This document shows, one piece after another, positions 10,561 through 61,889 of a stretch of DNA of 64,000 nucleotides. Source of the DNA: Candidatus Woesearchaeota archaeon (GTDB taxonomy: Archaea > Nanobdellota > Nanobdellia > Woesearchaeales > DSVV01); assembly GCA_038884615.1 (NCBI GenBank), contig JAWABL010000004.1, forward strand, positions 4,479 through 68,478, written 5' to 3'. Position 1 is the stretch's first letter. Each line of letters opens with the position of its first letter. The notes below the pieces were generated by a model. It did not search any database. It saw only the letters and a list, made by a program, of their open reading frames with translations, and had not been told where the DNA came from. The translations under genes and the position numbers were made by a program.

Positions 10561-10725
10561 GGCACCCTTCAAAATCTCGTTTTCGGTCGGTTTAACATCA
10601 TGTTGGCACTTTTCCATTCAAATCAAAATATCTGGTTCTCCGTATGGAACAACTCACTTCAAACCCATATATTGTTCCTGAATGTACATACGCGGTAGAT
10701 GCTAACACACTTTTTGAACGCAGCC
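10561..10725 (+). repeat. MITE-like repeat element, copy 1 (about 165 bp, imperfect terminal inverted repeats GGCnnCGTTCAAAA)
   Basis: About 93% identical to 24649-24813. It is the reverse complement of 59895-60059 and 61726-61889. It is non-coding and intergenic between the pilin and T2SSF genes. Confidence 0.8.
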
Positions 10726-10783
10726 GTATTTAAAAAACTAAATCTAAATATCAACACAGATAAGTATTAGTGTTGGTTATACA

Positions 10784-12376
10784 TTATGAAAAGATGCTTC
10801 CAAACAGCATTCCCATTATTTTTGACGCAAGAAAAAATATAATCATTGTTGCCAAAATAAATATTGGGAGATAGTGTAGCCCTTCTTTCACATCGCCTTT
10901 TCTTATTGTTGTAACAATGATACCAGAAAATAGGGAAGAAACTCCAAGACATGCGTAGATAAATATTCTATAGTCTTCAGGTTTGATATTATCGCTAGAT
11001 ATATTTATTGATATCATTCCCCCTCTTGGCATTGAACCCGCTGAACTTACGCCAGTGGCTATCTTCTGTACAATTAAAAGAAGCTGTTCTGATAGGGCAA
11101 AAAGTACTGGTGCGGCTATTATAGAGGCGAATGTTATGAAAATCGCATAGGTCATTACATTCGCGCTCATCTCTTTTTTCATCGCTCGTAGTTCGCTTAT
11201 GTTTATTGCAATCTTGTTAAGAAGTTCGCCCACATCTCCGCCAGACTCAGTGCCTTCAATTAAAAGGGTTATTGAGCGCTCAAGTATTGTAGAATCATAT
11301 CTTTTTGAAAAATCAATAAGTGCCTTGTTAAGGTCTTCGCCGCTGAGAGTCCTTTTTGCAACATCTTCTATTTCCTTTGCAAGAACACCAAATTTTGGCC
11401 TTACAGCAAACCAAAGTGCTCGGTCAATGGACATGCCCGCCCTTATGTTTGCAGATGTAAGCTGAAGAAAATCTGGCAGTACTTCTTCAATCATAAGCTT
11501 TCTTTGGTACATCCTAATATCAATATAAATCATAAAAGACAGCCAGATAACTACCCATATAAGGAAGAATCCAAGAGTCCCTAATAGTAGAATCATTAAA
11601 GCAATATGACTTAGCGAGTCGTCATGTGAAGCTAGCCTTATGATTACAAAGAGAGTTGCAATTGCTGTAATTACGCCTGAGACTGTAAGAATTATTTTTG
11701 GTACCTTTGCGGGCTCAAGCTCAAGCCCTGCCTTCTCCATGTGCTCAACAAGCCGCCTTTTTCTTGCAGGAGCTGTCAGCTTCTTCCTTGTCTCCTCTGT
11801 TTGTTTTCTGAATACTTTAGCAATTTCAATCCTTTCTTCCTTTTTTGCGTTGTTTAGGCCATCTTTCTGTTTGTTTGAAATCTTAAATCTACTTTTGACA
11901 TGATTTATGGCATTGAGCAGGAGAGACCCTTTTGATTTTTCTACTACATCTTCAGATTTTTTAGCAGATGGTGTATTCTCCTCTTGATTATCTACTACTT
12001 TTTCAGCCTTTTTTTCAAATGTTTCTTTTTGCTGTTCCTCTTTTTTCTCTTTAGAACTCTCTTTTAGTTTACCAAGCAAATTTCTATATAAACTCCAAGT
12101 AAACCCGGCCTTCTTTGTACTTTTTTCATCATTTTTTGCGACATTTGAAAGACTTTCTCCCATGCTTTCTCTGCGACTAACTTTAGAAACATCTAACTTA
12201 GACTCCTGTGTTTTCTTTGTTATTTCTGTTTTTTTTCTATTCATTCCAGCAGCATTAGTTTTCATATTACTGCTGACTTTTTTTTCTCTTTTATCGCCTT
12301 TCGTTCTCTTTCCTGTACTAACTGCCTTTCCTTTATATAGCATTCCATATGCGCTTTTGATATTTTTTTTAGCCAT
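10784..12376 (-). CDS. T2SSF-domain membrane protein (TadC/FlaJ-like) with a lysine-rich disordered N-terminal extension of about 230 aa
   Basis: The C-terminal half has a GspF/TadB/FlaJ-type domain (LPDFLQLTSANIRAGMSIDRALWFA...LLIEGTESGGDVGELLNKIA) flanked by TM helices. The N-terminal 230 aa are low-complexity K/E/S-rich. Confidence 0.7.
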   Translation of the reverse strand: MAKKNIKSAYGMLYKGKAVSTGKRTKGDKREKKVSSNMKTNAAGMNRKKTEITKKTQESKLDVSKVSRRESMGESLSNVAKNDEKSTKKAGFTWSLYRNLLGKLKESSKEKKEEQQKETFEKKAEKVVDNQEENTPSAKKSEDVVEKSKGSLLLNAINHVKSRFKISNKQKDGLNNAKKEERIEIAKVFRKQTEETRKKLTAPARKRRLVEHMEKAGLELEPAKVPKIILTVSGVITAIATLFVIIRLASHDDSLSHIALMILLLGTLGFFLIWVVIWLSFMIYIDIRMYQRKLMIEEVLPDFLQLTSANIRAGMSIDRALWFAVRPKFGVLAKEIEDVAKRTLSGEDLNKALIDFSKRYDSTILERSITLLIEGTESGGDVGELLNKIAINISELRAMKKEMSANVMTYAIFITFASIIAAPVLFALSEQLLLIVQKIATGVSSAGSMPRGGMISINISSDNIKPEDYRIFIYACLGVSSLFSGIIVTTIRKGDVKEGLHYLPIFILATMIIFFLASKIMGMLFGSIFS

Positions 12377-12507
12377 TATCTCTCTTTTTTTGTTTATTTT
12401 AATTTTTTCCTCTATTTTTATTGAGTGTATAAAATATATAATTCCTAAAATAATTCCTAGATTCTTGCTGTTATACTTATGTTACACACCCGTTATGCAT
12501 ATATTAA

Positions 12508-13335
12508 TTATAATTCTACTGACGGCCTTGAGCTCTTGATTATTGCGTAAAACATGAATTGTATAAAACCAAGCATTCCTGCAACCATCAATAAAAAAAC
12601 AAGGGAAAGCTTAAATCCTATGAAACTTGAGAAAATTATTAGCATTGTTGTTCCGAGTGAGGGAAGGATTACTGCTATCAGCATATAAAACATAGCCAGC
12701 GGATTAAGCTTTCTGCCATATTCCTCAACTTCAATTTTTTGCTCTCTTACAATCTGCTCAAGCACAGATGAAAGTGCAGTTGTTACATCTGCGCCTGTTT
12801 TTATAGAGTTAAGAATTTGCCAGAATATTTTTCTTAAGTTGTTGGATGGCACAATCTCAGTTGCCTCTGTTATTGCATCGTCCATAGATGTCCCTAGATT
12901 AACCTTCTCTACAATGGCACCATAGTATCTTCCTACTGCAGGATACGCCTTTGCTACATTAACAAACGCGTTGTATATGGGCACTCCTGATTCAATCTCT
13001 ATTATGATAAATCTAGTAGCAAAAACAATCTCTTTGTTTATGGCCTTTTCACGGCGTTTGATTTTTATATCGGGCACTCTCATCATATAAAAGAACATTA
13101 TTGCAACAGCTATGGGAAAGAGGACAAGGGTTATTTCTATGGGGACTCCAAATCCCTTTAGGATGCCTCCAAGAAAAAGCACAACAACCCCAAATGAAAG
13201 CATGAGAGAGATGATTAAAGTTTTTCTTACAAATTCTTCAGGTGAGTCAAGAATTTCTGCCTGGACAAGCTTGAGCTTTAAGCCAGGGTAGAAATCGCTT
13301 ATTTTATGAAAGATAAAATGTACAATGTTAATCAC
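12508..13335 (-). CDS. T2SSF-domain membrane protein (TadB/FlaJ-like, second half-size paralog)
   Basis: 275 aa with TM helices at both ends and a central cytoplasmic T2SSF-like domain (NKEIVFATRFIIIEIESGVPIYNAFVNVAK...). It lies directly adjacent to the ATPase gene. Confidence 0.7.
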   Translation of the reverse strand: MINIVHFIFHKISDFYPGLKLKLVQAEILDSPEEFVRKTLIISLMLSFGVVVLFLGGILKGFGVPIEITLVLFPIAVAIMFFYMMRVPDIKIKRREKAINKEIVFATRFIIIEIESGVPIYNAFVNVAKAYPAVGRYYGAIVEKVNLGTSMDDAITEATEIVPSNNLRKIFWQILNSIKTGADVTTALSSVLEQIVREQKIEVEEYGRKLNPLAMFYMLIAVILPSLGTTMLIIFSSFIGFKLSLVFLLMVAGMLGFIQFMFYAIIKSSRPSVEL

Positions 13336-15144
13336 CTAAGCAAGCTTTTTATTTGCTCTTACATACTTCAATAGATTTTCATAGTTTGTGTAGTACTCTG
13401 CCATTACTCTGCCTACTCCATCAACTGTATCTATGTTATTTCTAACAAGGTAGTTGAGCACCTCCTCCTTTGTCTTAAGAATGTTTTGTATCTCTTTTGG
13501 CGAATGCCCTGTAAAAAGCTGGAGTGTCTGCATAAGCGCCTTGCTTTCCTTTACTTTTTTAAGTTTATCTTCCTTTGGGTCGTACTGCATTATAACATTA
13601 ACTGATGCGTCAGGTAAAATTTCGGCTATCTGGAATGTTCTTCTAAGGCCAGTTCTCCTGTTTCTAAACTGAACAATTATAAGAGAAATTGCAGGCATCA
13701 TGCTTTTTGGAACCTCAATAGGGGGGTTAGTCAGCCTGTTTACGGTCTCCTCAGCTGTGTTTGCGTGGAATGTTGCATAGCAGCTGTGCCCAGTATGTAT
13801 TGCCTCAAAAAGAGTTTCAGCCTCTCTCTTCCTTCTTACCTCGCCTACAAGTATTCTATCTGGCCTCATTCTAAGGCTATTTACAAGAAGGTCTTCCATT
13901 GTTACTTCTCCTTTCCCTTCGGTGTTTGGAAGCCTTGTATTCATAGGGACCCAATGCAAAAACTTAGGTAGCCTTATTTCTCTTGTATCCTCTATAGATA
14001 TTATTCGTTGGTTGGGGGGGAAGAAGCTTGCAAGCACATTAAGCGCGCTTGTTTTTCCGCTTGCAGTTCCTCCAGCTATTATCGCAGAAAGCTCATACTG
14101 CATGCAAAGCCAGATAAGTGCAGCCGCTTCTGTGCTGATTGTATTGTGCTGCAAAAACTTTGTTATTGTAAATGGGTCTCTTGAAAACTTTCTTATCGTA
14201 ATTGTATTGCCTCTTGTTGATATAGGCATGATTGTAGCATTGACCCTGTCACCCTCTGAGAGATGGGCGTCTAGCAACGGCTCAAGTATGCTAATCTGTC
14301 TCCCTACCCTGCGGCCTATCATTGCTGCATAGTGCTTTGTCTGGTCGTCATTTGGCATGAATATATTTGACTTTAGCCAGCCGTGTTTCTTATGGTATAC
14401 CCAAACCGGTTCCTCAACGCTGTTTATTACTATCTCCTCAAGAGCAACATCATGCATTAATATGTCAATATTTCCCATTCCAAGACTCTTTTGTATAAGA
14501 TATGTTGTTAGATACCCCTTGGTCTCATCGTCGACATCAGGGAAATACTTTTTAACAAGAATTGCTATCGTTTCCTTGAACTTTTCTTCTACAATCCCTG
14601 TTTCCTTTGGGTTTATTATCTCAACCATTCCAAGGGTTACTTCCTTAATCAGCTTTTTTCTTATTTGCTCAAGTATCATCTCAGTAGTCTTGCTGATGCT
14701 TGCGATTGAGACCTCATATATAGGCACAAACTCTCCTTCTTTTGTATATACTCTTATTGTTATCGGCATATTATCGCAGTTAAAATGGTATTCGTCAAGA
14801 AGCCGTATTATTCTATCAGAATTCTCATCAAGTCTTTCCTGTTTATCAAACGCACTATGCTGATAATTTTTTTTGTTTAATTTCTTTTTATCTTTGGCAG
14901 TCCCCTGCTTTTCTTGTAAGGCATCACCACTTTTTGTTTGAGATGCGTCTCCTTCCAGATGCTCTTTTACCTCTTCCTTCACTGCGCCTAGTTTGCCTGC
15001 TTCCTTTTTGCTGGAAGTTTGTGTAGATACGCCGCTAGTCAACTCCTGCGAGTCTCTCCTTTTTTTCTCTTTCGTTTTTTTTGTTTCTGGACTCCAAACT
15101 AATTTTGATTTGCCATGTCCCCCTCTTTTTTTAACCATCTTCAA
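13336..15144 (-). CDS. Type II/IV secretion-system ATPase (FlaI/PilB/VirB11 family) with a basic disordered N-terminal extension of about 110 aa
   Basis: Walker A (AGGTASGKTSALN), an Asp box / Walker B (IISIEDTREI), a His box (AIHTGHSCYATFHA) and the VirB11/GspE core (RMRPDRILVGEVRRKREAE). The N-terminus is K-rich low complexity. Confidence 0.85.
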   Translation of the reverse strand: MKMVKKRGGHGKSKLVWSPETKKTKEKKRRDSQELTSGVSTQTSSKKEAGKLGAVKEEVKEHLEGDASQTKSGDALQEKQGTAKDKKKLNKKNYQHSAFDKQERLDENSDRIIRLLDEYHFNCDNMPITIRVYTKEGEFVPIYEVSIASISKTTEMILEQIRKKLIKEVTLGMVEIINPKETGIVEEKFKETIAILVKKYFPDVDDETKGYLTTYLIQKSLGMGNIDILMHDVALEEIVINSVEEPVWVYHKKHGWLKSNIFMPNDDQTKHYAAMIGRRVGRQISILEPLLDAHLSEGDRVNATIMPISTRGNTITIRKFSRDPFTITKFLQHNTISTEAAALIWLCMQYELSAIIAGGTASGKTSALNVLASFFPPNQRIISIEDTREIRLPKFLHWVPMNTRLPNTEGKGEVTMEDLLVNSLRMRPDRILVGEVRRKREAETLFEAIHTGHSCYATFHANTAEETVNRLTNPPIEVPKSMMPAISLIIVQFRNRRTGLRRTFQIAEILPDASVNVIMQYDPKEDKLKKVKESKALMQTLQLFTGHSPKEIQNILKTKEEVLNYLVRNNIDTVDGVGRVMAEYYTNYENLLKYVRANKKLA

Positions 15145-16295: not shown

Positions 16296-16391
16296 AAAGG
16301 CGACTTTAAACCTTCTTTCTTTAAAAATGTTTCTATGCGTTATATCTCTATGCTATATCTGCTGCTCTTTGCTATTATATCTCCTACGCAC

Positions 16392-24000: not shown

Positions 24001-24414
24001 TTAGTCATCTATTATGACGCCAGTGTCTGTAGCAGTTATGGATATATACCTTATACCTGCATGAGGCGATAAACTTCCTGAAAGATTGACTTGGCTTTGC
24101 TGGGTTATATCAGTAGTCTCTCCTTGCCATTTCATCCTAAAAACAAGTTCCTTTTCTGTTATTATAATTGCATCAATATTTTTTGGCATATAAACCTTAA
24201 GTGTTGTTTTTGAGGGCTCACCTAAGTAGTACACCGTTTCTGCCGAGTCAACTATCTTTCTTGCAAGAAGGTGTGCTTGATTAGCATTTACTCTCATCTC
24301 CACTGCACTTTTTTCAGAGCCGTATATAAAAAGAAGCGGTATCAATGCAAGAAGCGCAAATGAAACTATCACTACATATTCAATAGCAAACTGCGACCTA
24401 ACCCCTTTCATCAT
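24001..24414 (-). CDS. Type IV pilin-like protein (137 aa)
   Basis: MMKGVRSQFAIEYVVIVSFALLALIPLLFIYG matches the QxxxEY class III motif. Confidence 0.6.
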   Translation of the reverse strand: MMKGVRSQFAIEYVVIVSFALLALIPLLFIYGSEKSAVEMRVNANQAHLLARKIVDSAETVYYLGEPSKTTLKVYMPKNIDAIIITEKELVFRMKWQGETTDITQQSQVNLSGSLSPHAGIRYISITATDTGVIIDD

Positions 24415-24648
24415 CTACCCTCTTTTTTAGTAGCTTGAGACCTACTATTTTGGAGATATACTATTTAAATCTATTTCATAAGATGTAACTATCATCTAAT
24501 GATACCATCCTTCTCTATTCTAAAATAATCTGCTAAAATAAAAAATATATACTAATAAAAATATATACTGTTTTTAATTTTTATATAATTTTTTAAAGAT
24601 GTAGAGCAAAAGCTTATAGTAAGCAAGCCTTTAAGAAGATTACTTTAA

Positions 24649-24813
24649 GGCTGCGTTCAAAATCTAGTTTTCGGTCGGTTTAACATCATGTTGGTACTTT
24701 TCCGTTTAAATGAAAATATCTGGTTCTCCGTATGGAACAACTCACTTCAAACCCATATATTGTTCCTGAATGTGCATACGCGGTGGATGCTAACACACTT
24801 TTTGAACGGTGCC
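24649..24813 (+). repeat. MITE-like repeat element, copy 2, flanked by a 12-bp direct duplication GATTACTTTAAG (24638-24649 and 24814-24825)
   Basis: It has the same family sequence as copy 1. A perfect 12-bp direct repeat lies immediately on both flanks, consistent with a target-site duplication. Confidence 0.8.
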
Positions 24814-25101
24814 GATTACTTTAAGAAAATTATTTATACTTATTATCTAATTAATAATAGACATGCCTCTTACAAAACCAGGAACCAAATCGCCAGCGGT
24901 CGAGTATGCAATAAAGGAGTACAAAGGCAAGGGTAGATTGCGAAAGGCTGATGCTTCACTGGAAAAAAAGTCAAGCGACACCGTTGAACAAAACAATATA
25001 TCTATTGATGTAGTAAGGATAAAAAAAAGGCCGCTAAGAAGGGCGCTGGATAAAATTAAGAGGTATTTCAAGTAAATATTAATATAATCTACTCTTAAAA
25101 A

Positions 25102-46068: not shown

Positions 46069-47439
46069 TTAAATAGTTTGCTGGATGTTGCTTACATAAA
46101 GATGGCCTGAAAAATCTGTTATTACAATCGGGCCGTTTGAAACTCCAATTCGTTGTGCAACAATCTTCTGTAGGCTGGCAAGAGCATATATATTTGGAAC
46201 AAACGCGCCCTCTCCTTTAATGAGCCTTCCATCATGCGTGACTGTCGCAATATGATGACTTCTGTAAAGTGCGTGCATTTCAAGTTTGTTCTCTCTTACA
46301 ACAAACCACAGTATGTCAAGGCAGGGGCTATTCTCGCGCTCAATATCATCTTGGCTGTCCCATAGAGATATTGTAGCCCTTCTAGTGTTTGGTTTAGAGA
46401 TAAGAAGTTTAACCACTTTTTCAACCTGGTTGCCCCATCTTTTGAAAATCCTGTTGTGATAGGTATAGACAAAATCGTCCAAAATATTCTCTCCACCGTT
46501 CAAGAACTCATCGGTATATTTTTTTAAATACTCCTCAGAAAATCCGTCGGGTATGCTTTTCAGCGGCTCAAGTATTGTTATAGATATGCTTCTGCATTCT
46601 ATAATCATTATGCCGCGCTGATCCCTAAGCATTGTTCCATTTTTGTATATAAACGCCGCAGCCTGAGTAAGTGCATCTGTCAGTGTCTCTGCTTGAACCG
46701 ATTGGCCGATAGTCGTTGCGAGTGCTCTCTCCTCAAATATTATATTTTCAGCTGCTTGTGCAAGCTCAAGCAACATTGGTTCGTCAAATCTGCAACCGCC
46801 ATCGTAAATCTTTTTACAGGATGCTTTACAGAGTGTATTTGTTATAAATTCAAACCCCTCAGGTGTTTCAATAGCATTTTGTGGTTCTTGAATGCACCCT
46901 CGAACAAGATGCTCTATCCTGTCAAAGTCACCAAAACTGAGATCTCTGCCAATAATCAAGTCGCATTGCTTTCTTATTCTTTCAAGTGCTTCAATTGGTA
47001 CACCTTCAAATTTTGGATTTGCCGCTTTTGTGTTCAGGATTATTCCATTGCTGTTTGTTCCATTCTTCCAGAATTTTTCAAGGGCATCTACAAGCATATG
47101 GCCATTGTCTTTTTTGTCAAACACAAGCAAGATAATTTTGTTTATGTTTGGGTTTGAGAGCAGGTTGGCAAACACATATTTTGCACCGTTGGTTGTTCTC
47201 CAAAAACCAGTCAGTGCGCAGTAGTTTGAAATTTTCAAAAAGAACTGTCTTATTTCTTCAGGCGGCAAATCGCTTTTCCATGTATACACAAATGCGACAG
47301 CCACATTTGATGTAGGGTTTCCTGATACGACATCTTTGGAATTGAAGAGCTGGACTTTTGGAATCTCATTTTGTTCATATACTATTTTTTTAATATCCCT
47401 TATAAGAAAAGGATCATACCCAATTTTAATCGTTTTCAT
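46069..47439 (-). CDS. Fusion protein: unknown N-terminal domain (about 235 aa) plus a compact thymidylate-synthase-like (ThyA-fold) C-terminal domain
   Basis: C-terminal residues align to ThyA landmarks. The matches are VEKVVKLLISKPNTRRATISLWD, SPCLDILWFVV (nucleophile Cys), LYRSHH, PNIYALASL and ITDFSGHLY. The N-terminal half has no P-loop or other recognisable motif. Confidence 0.6.
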   Translation of the reverse strand: MKTIKIGYDPFLIRDIKKIVYEQNEIPKVQLFNSKDVVSGNPTSNVAVAFVYTWKSDLPPEEIRQFFLKISNYCALTGFWRTTNGAKYVFANLLSNPNINKIILLVFDKKDNGHMLVDALEKFWKNGTNSNGIILNTKAANPKFEGVPIEALERIRKQCDLIIGRDLSFGDFDRIEHLVRGCIQEPQNAIETPEGFEFITNTLCKASCKKIYDGGCRFDEPMLLELAQAAENIIFEERALATTIGQSVQAETLTDALTQAAAFIYKNGTMLRDQRGIMIIECRSISITILEPLKSIPDGFSEEYLKKYTDEFLNGGENILDDFVYTYHNRIFKRWGNQVEKVVKLLISKPNTRRATISLWDSQDDIERENSPCLDILWFVVRENKLEMHALYRSHHIATVTHDGRLIKGEGAFVPNIYALASLQKIVAQRIGVSNGPIVITDFSGHLYVSNIQQTI

Positions 47440-51310: not shown

Positions 51311-51545
51311 ATCAGTTAGTTCTTTTAAATAATCCTATTTAAATATTTACTTTTATCTTAAACTTTTTTGTTTTTATTAAATCTTATAATTCTTTATATA
51401 TTCTACCTTATATATCCTATTTTATATACTATCTGTTGTACTTTGTCAATCAATTACCTATATCATTTTATCTTTATTTTACATTTTATCTCATACCACA
51501 TCATATAATGTAATACAAATACAAAATTTTATAAATATGTAAATT

Positions 51546-52388: not shown

Positions 52389-52390
52389 AA

Positions 52391-53710
52391 ATGAGCGTAT
52401 TTAAGGCATATGATATACGTGGTGTATATCCAAGAGAGATTAATGAAACTCTTGCATACATGATAGGACGGGCATTTGTAATATTTCTTTCCTGCAAAAA
52501 GGTTGTTGTCGGAAGAGATGCAAGGCTCTCAAGTCCATCTCTTTTTGAGGCTCTTACAAGGGGCATTACAGACCAAGGTGCAGATGTTATGGACATAGGT
52601 GTTTGCACCACTCCATTAGTTAGTTTTGCTGTTGCAAGCAAAGAACTTGATGCTGGAATAATGATAAGTGCGTCGCACAACCCTTCACAGTACAATGCTT
52701 TTAAGATAATCGGAAAAAGGGCGGTGCAGTTGCATAAGGATACAGGAATTGAGAATATTAGACAGATTGTTGAAAAGGGAGTTTTCCCCGATGCAAAAAA
52801 AGGCAGGATAATCCATTTTAAAATATTGGAGGATTATATATCGCATATTATGAGTTTTGTAGTTGGAATAAAAGGTATAAAAATTGTAGTTGATTATGGC
52901 AACGGTGTTGGCTCTATAACTGCGAAGCCTGTATTTGCAAAGTTGCCTATCAAAGTCATAGGGATGTTTGAGGAACCAGACGGAACCTTTCCTAATCATC
53001 CTGCGAATCCTCATGATGTAGAGAATATAGCTCCTTTACAAAAAAAGGTTCTTGAGGAAAAAGCAGATGTCGGGCTTTTTTTTGACGGAGATGGAGACCG
53101 ATGCCTTTTTGTGGATGAACATGGCAAAATAGTTTTTCCAGATCTTTTGCTTGCGCTTCTTGCTCAGGCAGAGCTTGCAAAGCATACACACGAGAAAGTA
53201 TACTTTGATCTTAGATTCAGCAGGGTTGTAAAGGATGTGATTGAAAGAAGCGGCGGCATTCCTGTTATGATGCGTGTTGGCAATCCTTATTACAAAGAGA
53301 AGCTTGTTTACGAGGGTGGCGTCTGCGGTGGAGAATTTTCGGGGCATATGTTTTTTAGGGATAATTACTGCATTGATGATGGGCTTTTTGCAGCAATTAA
53401 ACTTTTATCTTTGTTATCCTCAAAAGGCAGGCCTCTTTCAGAGCTTATAAACCCTCTTAAGGTTTATTTTTCGTCTGAAGAGATAAGTCTTCATGTGAAA
53501 GACACCGATTCTGTAATTGAAAAAGTTAGAAGAGAATTTTCAGATGGAGAAAACATAGAGCTAGATGGCTTGTTGATACAATATTCTGATTGGTGGTTTA
53601 GCCTAAGAAAGTCAAATACAGAACCTCTAGTCAGACTGCGCCTTGAGGCAAATACTGCTGAAAAACTTGAAAGGATGCGTTCAAAACTATTTTCCATTAT
53701 TAAAAGCTAG
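52391..53710 (+). CDS. Phosphoglucomutase/phosphomannomutase (alpha-D-phosphohexomutase)
   Basis: The active-site Ser loop is ISASHNP. The metal-binding motif is FFDGDGDRC. The sugar-binding motif is GGEFSGH. Confidence 0.9.
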   Translation: MSVFKAYDIRGVYPREINETLAYMIGRAFVIFLSCKKVVVGRDARLSSPSLFEALTRGITDQGADVMDIGVCTTPLVSFAVASKELDAGIMISASHNPSQYNAFKIIGKRAVQLHKDTGIENIRQIVEKGVFPDAKKGRIIHFKILEDYISHIMSFVVGIKGIKIVVDYGNGVGSITAKPVFAKLPIKVIGMFEEPDGTFPNHPANPHDVENIAPLQKKVLEEKADVGLFFDGDGDRCLFVDEHGKIVFPDLLLALLAQAELAKHTHEKVYFDLRFSRVVKDVIERSGGIPVMMRVGNPYYKEKLVYEGGVCGGEFSGHMFFRDNYCIDDGLFAAIKLLSLLSSKGRPLSELINPLKVYFSSEEISLHVKDTDSVIEKVRREFSDGENIELDGLLIQYSDWWFSLRKSNTEPLVRLRLEANTAEKLERMRSKLFSIIKS

Positions 53711-53751
53711 CAAGTTAGGAACTAAGTTAGGGGCTAATAAGCTGGATTGCG

Positions 53752-54615
53752 CTAGGCGTTGCGAGAAAGCATAATAACTGCATCCTCTATCATTTTAATC
53801 TGCTTTTTAAGCCTGCCAAAAATAGCTTCACAGTTTACATATCTAATATTCATTTTTCCACAGTAATATGACATAGAACCGTCATTAATATGCTCTCTTG
53901 CAAGAACAGTATTATACCCTTTTTTTCTCATATAATGAAAGTCCTGTTCATGTGTAACAAGGAAAAAGTCGTCAGGCTCACTGTCATTTATGAAAACTTC
54001 CTTTGCTTGCTTAATAAACTCGTCGTCTTCAAGATAACTACGCGCAGAAAAATCCTTTCCATTTTTGCTTCGGAAATCAACATTATTGTGGACAGCGAGA
54101 ACAGGGCTATTTGGCAAAAGAGAGGACTTAACTACCTCTGCAAGCTTGTTCACGAGCCTTGTAGATTCGGCGTCTGCCTTTGAGTATCCATTGCCGCAGT
54201 AATTATTTAGTGTTCCAACAATCCCTTCAATAGTATAAATCCTATTTGGGTCAAATCTGTAAGACTTTCCATTGTTGTCAAAACATATCAACCTTTCTGG
54301 CTTTTGGCCTTCAATTACGACAAGTCTGCCTCCTTTTGTCTCATGCACAATCCTTGCAGCCTCAATCGCAGTTTTTTCGTTCTGATGAACCCAAAGATAA
54401 GTAATGTATGCACCAGATTTATTCTTGTTTACAACATTAATCAAAGAATTTCCGAGTCTTATAGGATAATATTCAGAGCGAACAGCGTCAGCGACGCTAT
54501 TTGTAGATTTAATGGTCCCGGTACCATCTACAATAACGGCTCTTCCTAATGTTCTAGATGCTTCTGCATTAGATGCATATTTATGGGTATATATTGAGCA
54601 ATATTCTGCACACAC
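53752..54615 (-). CDS. Hypothetical protein
   Basis: 287-aa ORF. No confident family assignment. Confidence 0.4.
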   Translation of the reverse strand: MCAEYCSIYTHKYASNAEASRTLGRAVIVDGTGTIKSTNSVADAVRSEYYPIRLGNSLINVVNKNKSGAYITYLWVHQNEKTAIEAARIVHETKGGRLVVIEGQKPERLICFDNNGKSYRFDPNRIYTIEGIVGTLNNYCGNGYSKADAESTRLVNKLAEVVKSSLLPNSPVLAVHNNVDFRSKNGKDFSARSYLEDDEFIKQAKEVFINDSEPDDFFLVTHEQDFHYMRKKGYNTVLAREHINDGSMSYYCGKMNIRYVNCEAIFGRLKKQIKMIEDAVIMLSRNA

Positions 54616-55101
54616 TCCTAAAAAAGCATATTTTAAAAATCCCTTCTACAGAGATTGGTATTCATCTTCTTTATTTTTATTCTTTTTACTTTTTTGTCTA
54701 TTTATCTATATATCGCTATCTATATTACTATTATAATCTCTATATATGTTTATATATCAATATATGTATATCAATATATATAATTATCAAATATCAATTA
54801 TCTAATTTCAATATCATACCAATATTATCAATATAATGTCTTCTTTTTTATGTATTATTATGTATACTTATCTATAATATACTTTTTATTATCTCTATAT
54901 CTCCTATATCTATAATTCTATGACTTCAATATAATTATAATTTTTAATAATTATAATACTTTATATATAACTTGGTTAAGGATAAAAACATTAAATTTAA
55001 ATACCACTGGCTTCTTGCTAAATAAGGAGAGAAAAAGGAAGAAAAGCAATCAAAAGCTTTTTTCTCAATTAATAAAAGTTGTTTTCGGGTGAAAAAGACT
55101 G
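54616..55101. repeat. AT-rich low-complexity intergenic region (degenerate TATA/ATATC-type microrepeats) between divergent genes
   Basis: About 480 bp composed of irregular ta/tat/tatc repeats. There is no regular repeat-spacer periodicity. It is a probable divergent promoter region. Confidence 0.5.
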
Positions 55102-55644
55102 ATGAAACGGTTGAAAGCGGTTTCACCGTGTTTAAGAGAAAAAAAACGTTATTTGGCGTATGAAGTTTTATCTAAACAACCAATAAATGATAAAAAAGTG
55201 TTATTTGACGCCTTAAACAAATCTTTTATAGACTATTTAGGGCAACTTGAGGCAGGAAAAGCAAGCATTATAATTATGCCTGAGATATATATACCAGTAT
55301 ATAAACAATCTTGCACACAAGGTACTATAAGAGGTACTATAGGTAATGTAACACCAAATAATGAAATATTGAAGACAGAAAGCAAAAGCATGGAAGATTT
55401 TGTACAGAATAAGTATAACAAATATAAAAAACAATATAATGAACCTATAAATAATTATACTATAAATAAGTATATAATAAATGGTATAATTAAAGTGAAC
55501 AACAAGTATGTAGACCATGTCAGGGCATCGCTTTGCTTTGTAAATAGGGTAGGAGAACAAGATGTTATTGTAAGGAGTATAAAAGTTTCAGGAATGATAG
55601 GCAAAATAAAAAGGCATATAATAGATAGAAAGATGGCGATGTAG
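55102..55644 (+). CDS. RNase P protein component Pop5/Rpp14-like, with a low-complexity insertion
   Basis: The N-terminus (LKAVSPCLREKKRYLAYEVLS) matches the Pop5 signature (L-x-x-x-L-R-x-K-x-R-Y-(L/I)-x-F-E-(V/I)). It sits in the conserved slot upstream of psmA in the archaeal exosome superoperon. An N/K/Y-rich insert of about 50 aa is present. Confidence 0.55.
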   Translation: MKRLKAVSPCLREKKRYLAYEVLSKQPINDKKVLFDALNKSFIDYLGQLEAGKASIIIMPEIYIPVYKQSCTQGTIRGTIGNVTPNNEILKTESKSMEDFVQNKYNKYKKQYNEPINNYTINKYIINGIIKVNNKYVDHVRASLCFVNRVGEQDVIVRSIKVSGMIGKIKRHIIDRKMAM

Positions 55645-55834
55645 AGGTGTAAAAAGCGCATAAAGCATAAAAAACAGCCACTTTTAGTTTTAATATTTAA
55701 AATTAATTTAAAATAAATATTTAGGATAGATATTTAGAATAATAAGAATAATAAATTTTTAGAAAAAAATACCTTTTTTAGAAAAAGAAAAAAAATGAAT
55801 AATAACTTAGACAAACTAGCTGGAGGATGATAAA

Positions 55835-56590: not shown

Positions 56591-56609
56591 TTAAAAAAGG
56601 TGTTTTAAA

Positions 56610-58089: not shown

Positions 58090-58804
58090 GAAAAGACCTT
58101 CAAATCGTGGGTTTACTGATGTTAGGCCTATAGAGGCAAAAGCAGGGATTATACCTAATGCAGATGGTTCTGCGTTTTTTAAAATTGGCAATACTACAGC
58201 TTATGCAGCTGTCTATGGACCCAGAGATTTGCATCCTAAGTTTTTGCAGGATCCATCAAAAGGCATTTTAAGGTGCAACTATAATATGATGCCTTTTGCA
58301 GGGATGGGTGAGCGAGTGAAGCCTGGTCCAAGCAGAAGATCACGCGAAATTTCAGTGGTAACTGAAAAAGCACTTCTTCCAGTGGTTGACTTAGACGAGT
58401 TCCCAAATGCAGTTGTTGATGTTTTTATTGAGCTTCCTGAGACAGATGCGGGTAGCCGTTGTGCAGGCATTTGTGCTGCTAGCATAGCTCTTGCAGACGC
58501 AGGAATCCCAATGAAAGACCTTGTAACAGCAGTGTCCATTGGCAAGGTTGATGATAAGCTACTTGTTGACCTTGAATATGAAGAAGAGGCGTATGAAGAA
58601 GGCCCTGTTGCTGATATACCTATTGCAATGGTTCCTTCAACAGGAAGGCTGTCATTGCTTCAGATGGACGGCGAAATAAAAAAGGAAGAACTCATAAAGC
58701 TTTTCGACATTGGGAAAAGTGCAATTATGAAGATATACGAAGCTCAGAAAAATGCTTTAAAAGAGAGGTATGCTATAGAAGCGGTGAGTAAAAATGAACA
58801 ATGA
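58070..58804 (+). CDS. rrp41: Exosome complex exonuclease Rrp41 (RNase PH domain)
   Basis: RPIEAKAGIIPNADGSAFFKIGNTTAYAAVYGPRD is the RNase PH core. It overlaps rrp4 by 20 nt. Confidence 0.9.
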   Translation: MKKMTYEKRPSNRGFTDVRPIEAKAGIIPNADGSAFFKIGNTTAYAAVYGPRDLHPKFLQDPSKGILRCNYNMMPFAGMGERVKPGPSRRSREISVVTEKALLPVVDLDEFPNAVVDVFIELPETDAGSRCAGICAASIALADAGIPMKDLVTAVSIGKVDDKLLVDLEYEEEAYEEGPVADIPIAMVPSTGRLSLLQMDGEIKKEELIKLFDIGKSAIMKIYEAQKNALKERYAIEAVSKNEQ

Positions 58805-59570
58805 TTTTAGGGTGCACATTATTGTTTCACTTAAAGAAAATATAAGGCTTGATGGAAGAAAGCTAGACGAATATAGACCTATAAAGATTCAGTATGGCGT
58901 TTCAAGGACAGCAGAAGGCTCTGCAATGGTATCTATCGGAGAAACAAAGGTGATTGCAGGAGTTAAGATGCTGATTGCAGAACCTTTTCCTGACAAACCT
59001 GATGAGGGTACTATCATGGTAAATGCAGAGCTTTTGCCAATGTCAAACCCTTTATTTGAACCAGGTCCGCCAGGGGATAATGCAATCGAGCTTGCAAGAG
59101 TTGTTGATAGAGGCATAAGGGAAAGCAAGGCTATTGATGTAAAAAAACTATTGATAAAAAAAGGTGAAAAGTGCTGGGTTGTTTCAATAGATATAATAAC
59201 CGTAAACGATAGTGGAAATCTATTTGATGCATCAGCGCTTGCAGCGGTTGCAGCCATACAGGACACTACCTTGCCTCTTTATGAGAACGATGAAATCAAC
59301 TATAAGAAACGAACAGAGGAAAGGCTTCCTATAACAAAGCTTCCAGTAAGCGTGACTGTTATAAAGATAGGTGACAGCTATATAGTTGATCCACTTCCTG
59401 AAGAGGAAGCTGCGTGCGATGCGCGGCTTACAGCAGCAACAACAGAAGATGGAACAATCTGTGCGCTTCAGAAAGGAGGTAATGAAACATTAAGCATTGA
59501 TGATGTATCGGCAATGCTTGATATAGCAATTGAAAAGGCAAGATATCTAAGGGGTTGCTTAAAAAGCTAA
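58794..59570 (+). CDS. rrp42: Exosome complex component Rrp42
   Basis: RLDGRKLDEYRPIKIQYGVSRTAEGSAMVSIGETKVIAGVK is the inactive RNase PH-like subunit pattern. It overlaps rrp41 by 11 nt. Confidence 0.9.
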   Translation: MNNDFRVHIIVSLKENIRLDGRKLDEYRPIKIQYGVSRTAEGSAMVSIGETKVIAGVKMLIAEPFPDKPDEGTIMVNAELLPMSNPLFEPGPPGDNAIELARVVDRGIRESKAIDVKKLLIKKGEKCWVVSIDIITVNDSGNLFDASALAAVAAIQDTTLPLYENDEINYKKRTEERLPITKLPVSVTVIKIGDSYIVDPLPEEEAACDARLTAATTEDGTICALQKGGNETLSIDDVSAMLDIAIEKARYLRGCLKS

Positions 59571-59677
59571 AATAAATACCTTCTAAATACAAGCATAAAT
59601 ACTCAATCTAGATTATAAAATATAATCTAAGAATATAATATAGGGGATTATAAAAATAGAAAGACTATGGTATGTTG

Positions 59678-59830
59678 CTAAGGTGTATTGCAACGGCAAA
59701 TCTCAATTCCTATTGGTATAACTTTGTATACTATAAGAAGTATTAAGATTATTCCTGCAATGAGCCCAAAAAAAAATCCCTTGAAAACATCAGACCACAT
59801 TCCTACAAAAGCATTTTTTAATTTAAGCAT
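59678..59830 (-). CDS. Possible small membrane protein (50 aa, below the ORF-track threshold)
   Basis: Hand-translated as MLKLKNAFVGMWSDVFKGFFFGLIAGIILILLIVYKVIPIGIEICRCNTP*, with a single TM helix. There is no homology evidence, so this is speculative. Confidence 0.2.
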   Translation of the reverse strand: MLKLKNAFVGMWSDVFKGFFFGLIAGIILILLIVYKVIPIGIEICRCNTP

Positions 59831-59894
59831 CTTCATCTCTTATCACCTTTTAAACTTTTATAGAAACTTATATAAATAATTTACCTTTTTATTG

Positions 59895-60059
59895 GGCACC
59901 GTTCAAAAAGTGTGTTAGCATCCACCGCGTATGCACATTCAGGAACAATATATGGGTTTGAAGTGAGTTGTTCCATACGGAGAACCGGATATTTTCATTT
60001 AAACGGAAAAGTGCCAACATGATGTTAAACCGACCGAAAACGAGATTTTGAACGCAGCC
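59895..60059 (-). repeat. MITE-like repeat element, copy 3 (reverse orientation)
   Basis: It is the reverse complement of the 24649-24813 family sequence, with more than 90% identity. It lies immediately upstream of the Sm gene. Confidence 0.8.
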
Positions 60060-60190
60060 CTTGCAAAAGAAAAGATTTAAATATGGTTCACAATTCCGCT
60101 GATTTAGTTTTATATATGTTTATTTTGATTTGGGATTAAATTTTAAGGTTGATTTTTTAACTTAGCAAGGTTTATATGGAGGTTATATTT

Positions 60191-60421
60191 ATGGAGACAA
60201 GACCATTAGATGCTCTTAATCAGTCAAGAAACAAAAGAGTAATTGTTGAGCTAAAGAACAATAAGCAGTATGTAGGTCTTCTGAAAGCTTTTGATATACA
60301 TATAAATATAGTACTAGAAGATGCAGAAGAGAGAATTGATGGAGAGGTCAAGAGAAAGTTGGGCACTGTTTTTGTAAGAGGAGACACAATAACAATAATA
60401 TCGGCTTCAAAGCAAGCGTGA
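60191..60421 (+). CDS. Sm-like archaeal protein (SmAP/Lsm)
   Basis: RPLDALNQSRNKRVIVELKNNKQYVGLLKAFDIHINIVLEDAEE contains the Sm1 and Sm2 motifs. GGAGGT SD is 8 nt upstream of the ATG at 60191. The track's upstream ATG lies inside that SD. Confidence 0.85.
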   Translation: METRPLDALNQSRNKRVIVELKNNKQYVGLLKAFDIHINIVLEDAEERIDGEVKRKLGTVFVRGDTITIISASKQA

Positions 60422-60509
60422 TAGTAGTATTATATTTTAAACAATCTCTAATAATATAATAAATATAAAGCATATCAAACATAATATCAAGCTTTAATAG
60501 TGAATTAAA

Positions 60510-60677
60510 ATGTCAAAAGGAACAGCAAGTCATGGCAAGAAATCTGGTAAAAAGACACATATACCTTGTAGGCGTTGTGGTAATTATTCTTATCATATAA
60601 GAAAAAAGGTTTGTTCAAGCTGTGGTTTTGGTAAATCAAAACGCAAAAGAAGCTATGCATGGCAGAAAAAGGGTTAA
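60510..60677 (+). CDS. rpl37e: Ribosomal protein L37e
   Basis: Hand-translated as [55 protein letters not shown], which is the L37e C4 zinc ribbon. It occupies the typical Sm-L37e gene pair. It is below the ORF-track size cutoff. Confidence 0.85.
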
Positions 60678-60686
60678 TTTTTTGAT
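60676..60686 (+). terminator. Oligo-T tract (TTAATTTTTTG) after rpl37e, an archaeal-type terminator candidate
   Basis: A run of 6 T immediately follows the stop codon. Archaeal RNAP terminates at oligo-T. Confidence 0.3.
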
Positions 60687-60849
60687 ATATCTCTTTTAGG
60701 GGATCCTGAACCTAGAAAATAAACCACTATAAATAAACAGAATAATAACTATAAACCAATATAAATATATACTACCATCTAACCTGTACATAAAATATAG
60801 GTGCATAAAATCTAATATGTTGTATTTAATTAAATGTATTTAATTAAAT

Positions 60850-61051
60850 GCGGGGATGCCGGAGTGGCCAAACGGGATAGGCTTAGGACCTATTGGCTTA
60901 GTGCCTGCAGGGGTTCGAAAAACAGAATACCAAATGAAACAGAAAATGCGCGTTTTATCCATCATGGTTTTAAATAGTTTTATTTGATTAAAAAGTGGTT
61001 AAATAAAGACAATTTATTTTTGGTGTTCTGGCGGAAGTCCTCTTCCCCGCA
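60850..61051 (+). tRNA. tRNA-Leu(TAG) interrupted by an intron of about 118 nt in the T-loop (position 59/60)
   Basis: Acceptor 5' GCGGGGA (60850-56) pairs with 3' TCCCCGC (61044-50), followed by discriminator A. The D-arm is GCCGGAGTGGCCAAACGGG. The anticodon stem-loop is ATAGG-CTTAGGA-CCTAT, with anticodon TAG. The variable arm is GGCTTAGTGCC (class II). T-stem AGGGG and T-loop TTCGAA are separated from the final loop nt T and the 3' T-stem CCTCT by about 118 nt. No CCA is encoded. Confidence 0.7.
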
Positions 61052-61381
61052 TATTTAATTTTTTAATAAAAAAATTTGCTGTTAGCAAAGCATTTTTAAT
61101 GCAAAGACATGCCATCGGATTTTATTTATCAGTACTTTGAATTCATGCCCTATTATTCTTATGACCTATATAATAGAATACTTATAAAAAAATACTTTAT
61201 AAAAACACTATAGATATATATACAAGCTCTTTTTTATATCATAAATTTATATCATAAAAATAATATGGCAAACAGGGCAAACACCGTAAGACCTTTGCCC
61301 TTTGTTTTTAATAGAATTTTATATAAAGAAGCTTTTTGCTACAAATTTTTAAGGTTTTTATAAAACCTGTAAAACATTTTT

Positions 61382-61545
61382 GCGGGGGTGCCGGAGTGGC
61401 CAAACGGGCACGATTCAGGCACTTGCCTGCCTGACATAGGCAGATTGAAACGTCGTGTGGCTCAGTGCCTACAGGGGTTCAAATAGCGAATTACAAAAAA
61501 TAGAAAACCATTTACGGAATTCGCTTGGGAGTCCTCTCCCCCGCA
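61382..61545 (+). tRNA. tRNA-Leu(CAG) with two introns (about 32 nt at canonical 37/38; about 48 nt in the T-loop at 59/60)
   Basis: Acceptor GCGGGGG pairs with CCCCCGC plus A73. The D-arm is identical to the neighbouring tRNA. The anticodon stem CACGA pairs with TCGTG across a 32-nt insert placed after the loop TTCAGG (anticodon CAG). The variable arm is GGCTCAGTGCC. T-stem AGGGG and loop TTCAAA are followed by a 48-nt insert containing the perfect 8-bp inverted repeat AGCGAATT...AATTCGCT, then T CCTCT. Confidence 0.7.
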
Positions 61546-61725
61546 TTAATTTATTTCTTTAACTACTTATAACTACTTATATAATTATAGGGTCATTTAT
61601 AGATATCATATAATAAACCCTCCATATTATTAATTCCCTATTTTATTATTGTGTTTATTGTGTTATACATATCATCATGTTATACACTATTTTATACTAT
61701 TTTATGTTATTATACTCTATATTAT

Positions 61726-61889
61726 GGCACCGTTCAAAAAGTGTGTTAGCATCCACCGTGTATGCACATTCAGGAACCATATATGGGTTTGAAGTGAGTT
61801 GTTCCATATGAAGAACCAGATATTTTCATTTAAACGGAAAAGTGCCAACATGATGTTAAACCGACCGAAAACGAGATTTTGAATGCAGC
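61726..61889 (-). repeat. MITE-like repeat element, copy 4 (reverse orientation)
   Basis: It has the same family sequence as 59895-60059, with a few substitutions. It lies downstream of the second tRNA-Leu. Confidence 0.8.

What the first reader, a model, noticed from the sequence alone, without database searches (positions are those of the whole stretch)
10561..61889. Four-copy MITE-like repeat family of about 165 bp with imperfect terminal inverted repeats, one copy with a 12-bp flanking duplication
Four copies of one non-coding element were seen directly. Two are in one orientation (10561-10725 and 24649-24813) and two in the other (59895-60059 and 61726-61889), at about 90-95% mutual identity. 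The two ends are imperfect inverted repeats of each other (GGCTGCGTTCAAAATCT versus the reverse complement of ...ACTTTTTGAACGGTGCC). Copy 2 is flanked on both sides by a perfect 12-bp direct repeat GATTACTTTAAG, as expected of a target-site duplication. An internal 7-bp hairpin GGAACAA...TTGTTCC is conserved in all copies. All four copies are intergenic. The two direct copies bracket the 13.9-kb pilus-locus core, and the two reverse copies bracket the Sm-L37e-tRNA-tRNA block. This could allow recombinational excision or inversion of those segments. The element could instead be a structured sRNA gene.
Basis: seen in the sequence. Interest (0 to 1): 0.65.

Follow-up and report, generated by a model that had tools for sequence, protein, structure and literature searches.

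The report
Small mobile DNA repeat in Woesearchaeota
A 165-bp non-coding repeat with inverted ends, present at least seven times in one tiny-celled archaeon's genome, is best explained as an ordinary miniature transposon (MITE), with two unexplained oddities: a flipped core in one copy and missing insertion scars in three.

Summary
The window has exactly four copies of a 165-bp element, 91-98% identical, with sharp ends and 14-bp imperfect terminal inverted repeats (GGCTGCGTTCAAAA / GGCACCGTTCAAAA). All four are intergenic.

The source is a Candidatus Woesearchaeota MAG (DPANN archaea). ORFs miscalled across the element reveal at least three more copies on three other contigs. Syntenic spacers in relatives are empty, most clearly at copy 3.

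The element is neither a gene nor a structured RNA:
- 10 non-synonymous against 3 synonymous changes, one stop codon and one frameshift;
- fold z-scores of -0.3 and -0.8, no covariation, no Rfam hit.

The closest relative carries an element whose first 30 bp match (24/30) but whose interior differs. So the termini define a wider family.

The best reading is a MITE moved in trans by an unidentified transposase.

- only copy 2 has a target-site duplication (11 bp abutting); three young copies have none;
- copy 1's core is inverted relative to its outer 7-bp termini;
- the internal hairpin is broken in copy 4.

No transposase lies in the window. The termini resemble IS6/IS26 ends, but the duplication length does not fit. 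MITEs in Woesearchaeota are already documented, so this is a new member of a known kind and of low interest.

The parts
10561..10725 (+). Copy 1 of the 165-bp element. The interior is in + orientation, but the outer 7 nt of both termini are exchanged (5' GGCACCC, 3' CGCAGCC). No flanking duplication. Lies 58 bp downstream of the last pilus-operon gene (T2SSF, stop at 10784) and 90 bp upstream of the 439-aa Cys-rich protein gene (start at 10470).
   Evidence: gene context
24649..24813 (+). Copy 2, standard form (5' GGCTGCGTTCAAAA ... TTTTGAACGGTGCC 3'). Sits in a divergent intergenic region upstream of the first pilin-like gene (start at 24414).
24638..24648 (.). Left copy of the 11-bp target-site duplication GATTACTTTAA, abutting copy 2.
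24814..24824 (.). Right copy of the 11-bp target-site duplication GATTACTTTAA, abutting copy 2.
59895..60059 (-). Copy 3, standard form. Lies between the divergently oriented 52-aa membrane-protein gene and the Sm gene. No flanking duplication. The syntenic spacer in relative L001 lacks it, and the flanks align on both sides.
61726..61890 (-). Copy 4, standard arrangement but with a degraded left terminus (AGCTGCATTCAAAA; G1 and G7 lost) and a broken internal hairpin. Lies between the second intron-containing tRNA gene and the S-layer protein gene. No abutting duplication.
24649..24662 (+). Left terminal inverted repeat (reference copy 2): GGCTGCGTTCAAAA.
24800..24813 (-). Right terminal inverted repeat (reference copy 2), read on the minus strand: GGCACCGTTCAAAA.

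Best explanation
[quoted passage not shown] These are non-autonomous DNA transposons of 165 bp that encode nothing. [quoted passage not shown]

Shown here:
- multi-copy dispersal within one Woesearchaeota genome;
- sharp ends at the inverted repeats;
- lack of coding or RNA-structure constraint;
- one insertion with an 11-bp target duplication;
- absence from the syntenic site in a relative;
- the same termini and subterminal 30 bp on an element with a different interior in the closest relative.

Inferred:
- trans-mobilisation by a DDE-type transposase, not identified;
- the three copies without duplications lost or never had them, because of a replicative or cointegrate-type pathway or because of recombination with copies outside the window;
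- copy 1's 151-bp core was inverted after insertion, by recombination or template switching between the 7-9 bp inner parts of its own inverted repeats.
For: Copies and ends:
- Four copies at 91-98% identity with boundaries exactly at the inverted repeats.
- Matches far above chance.
- At least three further copies on contigs of 60.5, 8.5 and 55.1 kb of the same MAG. They were found because NCBI's annotation called ORFs across them: MEM4267615.1, MEM4268445.1, MEM4267778.1.
- A perfect 11-bp direct repeat abuts both ends of copy 2. By my estimate the chance probability is about 4e-7.

Occupied versus empty sites:
- Relative L001 has the same gene order (Rrp42, small membrane protein, Sm) but no element. 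Its spacer aligns with the window on both sides of copy 3, including the TTTAAATA box upstream of Sm.
- The copy-1-equivalent spacer in L004 (106 bp) and the copy-2-equivalent spacer in L003 (79 bp) are too short to hold an element.

Not coding: 10 non-synonymous against 3 synonymous differences, a stop codon in copy 1 and a frameshift in P0122.

Not a structured RNA:
- no Rfam family;
- fold z-scores of -0.26 and -0.84;
- covariation term 0, no compensatory pairs, several broken pairs.

Same termini on a different element: L002 7402-7431 matches element positions 1-30 at 24/30, starting at base 1 (0 of 300 shuffles reach the score), with an unrelated interior. A second terminus-like end (14/15) lies 10 bp away.

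Literature: MITEs occur in about 20% of archaeal genomes, and a Woesearchaeal genome is among the most MITE-dense archaea (PMC11602168).
Against: - Three of four copies have no abutting duplication, although the copies are too similar for a duplication to have eroded.
- At copy 3 the joined flanks align with the relative's empty site with no duplicated bases.
- No left-versus-right flank matches exist among the four copies that would reveal flank exchange.
- No transposase lies among the 48 ORFs of at least 150 aa in the window. Pfam was run on 40 of them, those from 2949 to 54615, and found none. The other eight are homologs of housekeeping genes in L001 or lie antisense within larger genes.
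- The rest of the genome could not be read.
- An 11-bp duplication is longer than the 2-10 bp usually quoted for MITEs.
- No copy was found in any other public genome, metagenome, virus or plasmid by exact 21-22-mer scans or BLAST, so mobility between genomes is not shown.
Confidence: 0.8

Rival explanations
1. A refinement rather than a true rival. The family is mobilised by an archaeal IS6/IS26-like transposase that works by a replicative 'copy-in' (cointegrate) pathway. Intramolecular events and recombination between copies would then routinely produce copies without target duplications.
For: - The termini share G1, G2, G7, T8, T9 and A12-14 with the IS6/IS26 consensus GGTTCTGTTGCAAA.
- The right end GGCACCGTTCAAAA matches IS26's GGCACTGTTGCAAA at 11/14.
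- Like archaeal IS6-like elements, the termini keep GG and G7 but lack G10 (PMC6807381 and PMC8477213).
- The family's terminal repeat is 14 bp, as here.
- Many IS6 entries have no recorded duplication, and the mechanism forms cointegrates.
- IS6-derived MITEs exist (227 and 336 bp; PMC7986276).
- Three of four copies here lack duplications.
Against: - The one clear duplication is 11 bp. IS6-family elements, including archaeal ones, give 8 bp, rarely 3, 5 or 9.
- The last 8 bases of the left repeat and the first 8 of the right repeat are different 8-mers, so an 8-bp duplication cannot be hidden inside the 11-bp one.
- No inverted half-duplications occur between oppositely oriented copies.
- No IS6-type transposase was found.
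- A 9-11/14 resemblance to one of about 30 insertion-sequence families could be coincidence. I did not test it against a library of IS ends.
Confidence: 0.15
2. The element is a family of small structured RNA genes. The 'terminal inverted repeats' form a closing stem, and the copies are paralogous sRNA genes.
For: - The two ends can pair into a 14-bp closing stem, and a 7-bp internal hairpin is predicted.
- The copies are intergenic, and two lie in divergent promoter regions.
- A TATA-like TTTAAATG lies inside the element (read from the sequence).
Against: - No Rfam match, even at E<=1 around copies 3 and 4.
- Minimum free energies are indistinguishable from shuffles on both strands.
- RNAalifold gives covariation 0, no compensatory pair and several broken pairs.
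- The hairpin is broken in copy 4.
- Copy 1's terminal swap keeps the two stem mismatches rather than repairing them.
- The TATA-like motif is mutated in copy 1, and P0123's matching substitutions imply the same.
- A target duplication at copy 2 and an empty site in L001 are insertion signatures, not gene-family signatures.
Confidence: 0.04
3. The element is a repeat spread by a process other than transposition: REP-like sequences propagated by recombination or gene conversion, or attachment-site remnants of integrated elements bracketing the pilus locus.
For: - Three of four copies have no duplication.
- The mosaic distribution of variants among copies suggests gene conversion.
- Copies 1 and 2 are direct repeats bracketing a 13.9-kb functional module.
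Against: - Copy 2 carries its own perfect 11-bp duplication.
- Pfam finds no integrase or recombinase domain in the ten proteins of the c1-c2 region.
- The pilus operon has the same layout in L002, L003 and L004 and shares the window's GC content, so it is a resident locus and not an island.
- Copies lie on four contigs in unrelated contexts.
- The boundaries coincide exactly with inverted repeats.
Confidence: 0.05
4. The copies are segmental duplications or an assembly artefact.
For: All four window copies lie on one contig of a metagenome-assembled genome.
Against: - Similarity stops exactly at the inverted repeats, with unrelated flanks.
- Copies differ from one another at 2-9% of positions.
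- Further copies lie on three other contigs.
Confidence: 0.01

Closest known systems
Prokaryotic MITEs in general, including those catalogued in archaeal and DPANN genomes (Nucleic Acids Res 2024, PMC11602168)
   Same: Size within 50-800 bp. Terminal inverted repeats of at least 10-15 bp. No transposase. Mainly intergenic. Multi-copy and taxon-restricted. That census reports a Woesearchaeal genome with about 105 MITEs per Mb.
   Different: The single duplication seen is 11 bp, against the usual 2-10 bp, and three of four copies have none. One copy has its core inverted relative to its outer termini. This particular sequence matched nothing in the collections I could search. I could not search that paper's MITE catalogue.
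IS6/IS26 family insertion sequences, their archaeal IS6-like relatives, and their MITE derivatives (PMC6807381, PMC7986276, PMC8477213)
   Same: 14-bp terminal repeat beginning GG, with G at position 7, TT at 8-9 and AAA at 12-14. Like archaeal members, no G at position 10. Copies frequently lack duplications. MITE derivatives are known.
   Different: The duplication here is 11 bp, not 8. No IS6-type transposase was found. The resemblance of the termini is 9/14 to the consensus and 11/14 to IS26, and was not tested statistically against other IS families.
Sulfolobus MITEs SM1-SM4 (recalled from memory: Redder, She and Garrett 2001; not checked here)
   Same: Archaeal, 80-190 bp, with terminal inverted repeats matching resident insertion sequences, tens of copies, intergenic.
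   Different: Different phylum and no sequence relationship tested. For those elements partner insertion sequences are known; here none has been identified.
Invertible DNA switches flanked by short inverted repeats, such as E. coli fimS (from memory)
   Same: Copy 1 shows a roughly 150-bp segment inverted between short inverted repeats, and it lies next to a pilus operon.
   Different: There is no recombinase nearby and no evidence that both orientations coexist. The internal TATA-like motif is mutated in copy 1. This is a resemblance in geometry only.

Membership tests
MITE (non-autonomous class II element) | Small size (about 50-800 bp) with no transposase gene or other coding capacity | tested here: met
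   165 bp. The one open frame shows 10 non-synonymous against 3 synonymous changes, a stop codon in c1 and a frameshift in P0122.
MITE (non-autonomous class II element) | Terminal inverted repeats of at least 10-15 bp that define the element's ends | tested here: met
   14-bp ends, 12/14 complementary. Similarity between copies stops at these ends.
MITE (non-autonomous class II element) | Target-site duplication of fixed length flanking insertions | tested here: inconclusive
   A perfect 11-bp duplication at copy 2 only. Copies 1, 3 and 4 have none. Flanks of the three or more other copies could not be read.
MITE (non-autonomous class II element) | Multiple dispersed copies in unrelated genomic contexts | tested here: met
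   Four copies in the window plus at least three on three other contigs of the same MAG.
MITE (non-autonomous class II element) | Presence/absence polymorphism (empty sites) between related genomes | tested here: met
   L001's syntenic spacer lacks copy 3 and aligns on both sides. The equivalent spacers in L003 and L004 are too short to hold an element. The relatives are distant (74-86% protein identity), so these are not strain-level empty sites.
MITE (non-autonomous class II element) | An autonomous partner in the genome that encodes a transposase and shares the terminal repeats | not testable with these tools
   None in the 64-kb window. The other contigs of the MAG were not retrievable. 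L002 has an element with the same first 30 bp and a different interior, but the contig ends 126 bp into it.
IS6/IS26-family-derived MITE | 14-bp terminal repeat matching the family consensus (GG at 1-2, G at 7; GGTTCTGTTGCAAA) | tested here: inconclusive
   G1, G2, G7, T8, T9 and A12-14 are present, and G10 is absent as in archaeal members. That is 9/14 to the consensus and 11/14 to IS26. Significance against other IS families was not assessed.
IS6/IS26-family-derived MITE | 8-bp target-site duplication | tested here: not met
   The only duplication is 11 bp and cannot be read as 8 bp. The family gives 8 bp, rarely 3, 5 or 9.
IS6/IS26-family-derived MITE | Cognate DDE transposase of the IS6 type in the same genome | not testable with these tools
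   None in the window.
Structured small RNA gene family | A conserved secondary structure supported by covariation, or a fold more stable than chance | tested here: not met
   z-scores of -0.26 and -0.84. Covariation term 0, no compensatory pairs and several broken pairs. Power is low with four near-identical sequences.
Structured small RNA gene family | Match to a curated RNA family | tested here: not met
   No Rfam 15 hit at gathering threshold over the whole window. Nothing at E<=1 over copies 3 and 4 apart from a tRNA.
IS200/IS605-derived palindrome-associated elements (PATEs) | No terminal inverted repeats; subterminal hairpins at each end; no target duplication (definition from general knowledge) | tested here: not met
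   The element has true terminal inverted repeats and one 11-bp duplication. No subterminal hairpins were predicted at the ends.

The most novel reading that the evidence does not exclude
The termini GGC(W)(S)C(G)TTCAAAA may mark an undescribed archaeal (DPANN) insertion-sequence lineage with an unusual integration chemistry. It would give either a full-helical-turn 11-bp duplication or none at all, for example through targeted or conservative integration at existing ends. The end, 10-bp spacer, end junction in L002 hints at this. In the same reading, the 151-bp core of its MITEs can be flipped between the inverted repeats, as in copy 1 beside the pilus operon, possibly as an active orientation switch rather than a one-off accident.
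Probability: 0.07. Interest if true: 0.5.

Novelty: new member of a known kind. Interest (0 to 1): 0.22.

Why it matters
The practical value is modest. The result documents an apparently lineage-restricted MITE family in a reduced DPANN genome. It shows that gene callers annotate its copies as 'hypothetical proteins' (three NCBI entries), and it gives a terminal motif with which the parent insertion sequence could be found. The copies are potential substrates for rearrangement around a type IV pilus-like locus and an Sm-L37e-tRNA block, but no such rearrangement is shown. The two oddities, a core inversion in copy 1 and missing duplications in three young copies, would only become interesting if they prove to reflect the transposition mechanism rather than later accidents.

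Tried and rejected
Searches for further copies that found nothing:
- Exact scans of GTDB representative genomes and JGI metagenome contigs with two invariant blocks (22-mer and 21-mer) found nothing. In hindsight a gapped pattern anchored on the terminal repeats would have been the better use of those scans.
- Viral contigs gave nothing with the 22-mer or with a pattern anchored on the terminal repeats.
- PLSDB plasmids and INPHARED phages gave nothing by sensitive blastn.

Attempts to read the source genome:
- Exact-protein look-up could not fetch the source contig or the three other MAG contigs; they are not on record.

Leads rejected:
- A phmmer pass over 1.84 billion representatives returned only the MAG's own copy plus P0124. 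P0124 is an 1832-aa translated tandem repeat whose E-value is inflated by repetition, so I rejected it as spurious.
- Candidate partner at 53.7-55.1 kb (terminus-like site at 53673, low GC, 287-aa ORF): rejected. The motif lies inside the conserved C-terminus of the phosphoglucomutase gene. The ORF has no transposase signature in Pfam or NCBIfam. There is no matching inverted end.
- Protein-coding small ORF in the element: rejected.
- Composite transposon c1-pilus-c2: rejected. Copy 2 has its own duplication, and the outer flanks of c1 and c2 do not match.
- Flank exchange among the four window copies: no support.
- Empty site for copy 4: the spacer is too diverged to align, and the tRNA block is inverted in L001.
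- The 107 bp upstream of L002's first end as a decayed copy: no significant similarity to the MITE interior.

Full report
OBSERVATION

The window contains exactly four copies of a 165-bp sequence:
- c1, 10561-10725 (+)
- c2, 24649-24813 (+)
- c3, 59895-60059 (-)
- c4, 61726-61890 (-)

Aligning each copy with 20-bp flanks shows that similarity starts and stops abruptly at the same positions in all four. Two invariant blocks of 24 and 27 nt each occur four times, against zero in shuffled sequence. The repeat finder and blastn recover the same four copies. A profile nucleotide search finds no additional or partial copy. Pairwise identity is 91-98%, or 94-98% for the interior. The ends are 14-bp imperfect inverted repeats, GGCTGCGTTCAAAA on the left and GGCACCGTTCAAAA on the right read inward, 12/14 complementary.

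SOURCE AND CONTEXT

The Rrp42 protein encoded in the window is identical to MEM4267533.1 of a Candidatus Woesearchaeota MAG, on a contig of 70,833 bp. The proteome is archaeal: a histone, Rrp41/42, Sm, L37e and proteins with class III signal peptides. All four copies are intergenic.
- c1 lies 58 bp past the stop of the last gene of a type IV pilus-like operon. That operon holds two T2SSF proteins, a T2SSE ATPase, a 1635-aa VWA protein and pilin-like proteins.
- c2 lies in the divergent region upstream of the first pilin-like gene.
- c3 lies between a 52-aa membrane-protein gene and the Sm gene.
- c4 lies between a tRNA gene and the S-layer protein gene.

There is no transposase among the 48 ORFs of at least 150 aa in the window. 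Pfam was run on 40 of them, those from 2949 to 54615, and found none. The other eight are homologs of housekeeping genes in L001 or lie antisense within larger genes.

COPY NUMBER BEYOND THE WINDOW

Exact scans of public genomes, metagenomes and viral contigs with two invariant blocks found nothing. Blastn against plasmid and phage collections also found nothing.

One reading frame is open across the whole element, so I searched its translation against 5.8 billion predicted proteins. That search returned exactly three hits, all 'hypothetical proteins' of the same MAG: QXK37_02180, QXK37_06485 and QXK37_03010, on contigs of 60.5, 8.5 and 55.1 kb. The family therefore has at least seven copies on at least four contigs. 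A full HMMER pass over 1.84 billion representatives added only a spurious repeat protein. The DNA of the other contigs could not be fetched.

WHAT IT IS NOT

It is not a gene. Among the four DNA copies the open frame shows 10 non-synonymous and 3 synonymous differences. Copy 1 has a stop codon and P0122 a frameshift.

It is not detectably a structured RNA:
- no Rfam family matches;
- the folding energy is no better than shuffles on either strand, with z = -0.26 and -0.84;
- the alignment fold has a covariation term of zero, no compensatory pair and several broken pairs;

With so little divergence these tests have low power. Still, nothing points to an RNA.

It is not a segmental duplication, because the flanks are unrelated and the copies are dispersed.

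INSERTION SIGNATURES

Copy 2 is flanked by a perfect 11-bp direct repeat, GATTACTTTAA, abutting both ends. It is 12 bp only if the element's first G is counted as flank. I estimate the chance probability of an abutting 11-mer at about 4e-7.

A relative with 74% Rrp42 identity (L001, ENA ERZ27245800) has the same gene order (Rrp42, small membrane protein, Sm) but no element. Its spacer aligns with the window on both sides of copy 3, including the TTTAAATA box upstream of Sm. The spacers equivalent to the copy 1 site in L004 (106 bp) and to the copy 2 site in L003 (79 bp) are too short to hold an element.

Against this, copies 1, 3 and 4 have no abutting duplication. At copy 3 the joined flanks match the relative's empty site with nothing duplicated. 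No copy's left flank matches another's right flank, in either orientation. The copies are too similar to one another for duplications to have decayed. This is the main unexplained point.

A WIDER FAMILY OF TERMINI

The closest relative found is L002 (JGI 3300022554, Ga0212093_1012887; ATPase 86% identical in protein, 76% in DNA). It has the same pilus operon.

Downstream of its last T2SSF gene, the site equivalent to copy 1, it reads ...CATTTTGAAGGCAGCC, then ATTATCCTGC, then GGCTCCGGTGAAAATCTCGCATTCGCTCGG.... The second stretch matches positions 1-30 of the MITE at 24/30, starting exactly at base 1; 0 of 300 shuffles reach that score. Its continuation is unrelated and richer in GC. The first stretch matches the terminus at 14/15. 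The contig ends 126 bp into the second element, as assemblies often do at repeats.

So the same termini and subterminal sequence occur in a second organism on an element with a different interior. That is what one expects of a MITE and its parent insertion sequence, or of sibling MITEs served by one transposase. L001, L003 and L004 have no such motif.

THE INVERTED CORE OF COPY 1

In c2-c4 the outer seven bases are GGCTGCG on the left and CGGTGCC on the right. In c1 they are GGCACCC and CGCAGCC, the reverse complements of the opposite ends, while the interior keeps the same orientation as c2.

Copy P0123 shares c1's three internal substitutions but has the standard right end. L002's second element also has the standard arrangement. 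So c1's state is derived. The simplest account is a single inversion of the 151-bp core by exchange within the 7-9 bp shared inner part of the inverted repeats, TTCAAAA with or without the preceding CG. This is inference, and the mechanism is unknown: template switching, short-homology recombination or an enzyme.

The swap keeps the two stem mismatches, so it is not RNA-type compensation.

WHICH TRANSPOSASE?

From memory the termini resembled IS26, and the literature confirms the comparison. IS26 has GGCACTGTTGCAAA. The IS6/IS26 consensus is GGTTCTGTTGCAAA, with G1, G2 and G7 nearly universal. Archaeal IS6-like elements keep GG and G7 but lack G10 (PMC8477213, PMC6807381). The element here fits that description (9/14 to the consensus, 11/14 to IS26).

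The family's cointegrate mechanism would also explain copies without duplications. However, IS6-type elements make 8-bp duplications, and the 11-bp repeat here cannot be read as 8 bp. I therefore do not file the element as an IS6 derivative. It remains a lead with about 15% confidence.

COMPARISON WITH WHAT IS KNOWN, AND VERDICT

The element meets the structural definition of a MITE: size, terminal inverted repeats, no coding capacity, multiple copies, and presence/absence between genomes. The duplication criterion is met only once, and the partner could not be tested.

MITEs are widespread in archaea, and a Woesearchaeal genome is already reported among the most MITE-dense (PMC11602168). This is therefore a new member of a known kind.

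Its sRNA alternative is not supported. Its idea of MITE-mediated excision or inversion is untested and is not needed to explain anything seen.

Interest is low (0.22). It rests on the two oddities and on the usable terminal motif for finding the parent element.

Noticed in passing
window 60850-61055: tRNA-Leu(TAG) gene interrupted by an intron of about 117 nt in the T-loop region. ARAGORN and Rfam at gathering threshold miss it. After in-silico removal of the intron, ARAGORN calls tRNA-Leu(tag).
   Followed up: yes
window 61382-61545: A second class II tRNA gene with two insertions, about 30 nt in the anticodon-arm region and about 47 nt in the T-loop region. After double in-silico splicing ARAGORN calls a tRNA. 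Given the long variable arm, tRNA-Ser(TGA) is the consistent reading, but the splice points are not determined.
   Followed up: partly
window 60850-61545 versus L001 11782-12252: The tRNA block lies on the opposite strand relative to the Sm gene in relative L001. The L37e gene next to Sm in the window has no detected counterpart among L001's called genes there. This looks like a local rearrangement between the lineages and is not attributable to copies 3 and 4, which are in direct orientation.
   Followed up: partly
L002 7371-7431: An element right end, a 10-bp spacer and the left end of a second element sit back to back (an end-spacer-end junction). The spacer length is close to the 11-bp duplication at copy 2. 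The first end shares with copy 1 the unusual C at terminus position 7, and it sits at the equivalent genomic site.
   Followed up: partly
window 55102-55644: The RNase P Rpp14 homolog is 180 aa, against 113 aa in L001. The tblastn match splits into two blocks (55111-55290 and 55483-55611), implying an insertion of about 64 aa.
   Followed up: no
window 53711-55101: The spacer between the phosphoglucomutase gene and Rpp14 is about 1.4 kb, against about 0.7 kb in L001. It has unusually low GC (about 30%) and holds a 287-aa ORF (53752-54615, minus strand) with no Pfam or NCBIfam match. Possibly lineage-specific or foreign DNA.
   Followed up: partly
window 46069-47439 (-): A 456-aa protein combining an MtrA-like N-terminal domain with a thymidylate-synthase-like C-terminal domain, next to a canonical thymidylate synthase and DHFR. 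The same fusion is present in L001.
   Followed up: no
window 9151-10470 (-): A 439-aa cysteine-rich protein with an N-terminal class III signal-peptide-like segment and no Pfam match, immediately downstream of copy 1. It has a weak homolog (25% identity) among the pilin-like genes of L003.
   Followed up: no
Copies c4 and P0122, versus c1, P0121, P0122 and P0123: Variants are distributed as a mosaic among copies. L->W is shared by c4 and P0122. L->S is shared by c1, P0121, P0122 and P0123 but not by c4. This suggests gene conversion between copies, or parallel mutation.
   Followed up: no
NCBI proteins MEM4267615.1, MEM4268445.1, MEM4267778.1: Three annotated 'hypothetical proteins' of the MAG (95, 44 and 44 aa) are translations of copies of this non-coding element, so they are annotation artefacts.
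   Followed up: yes
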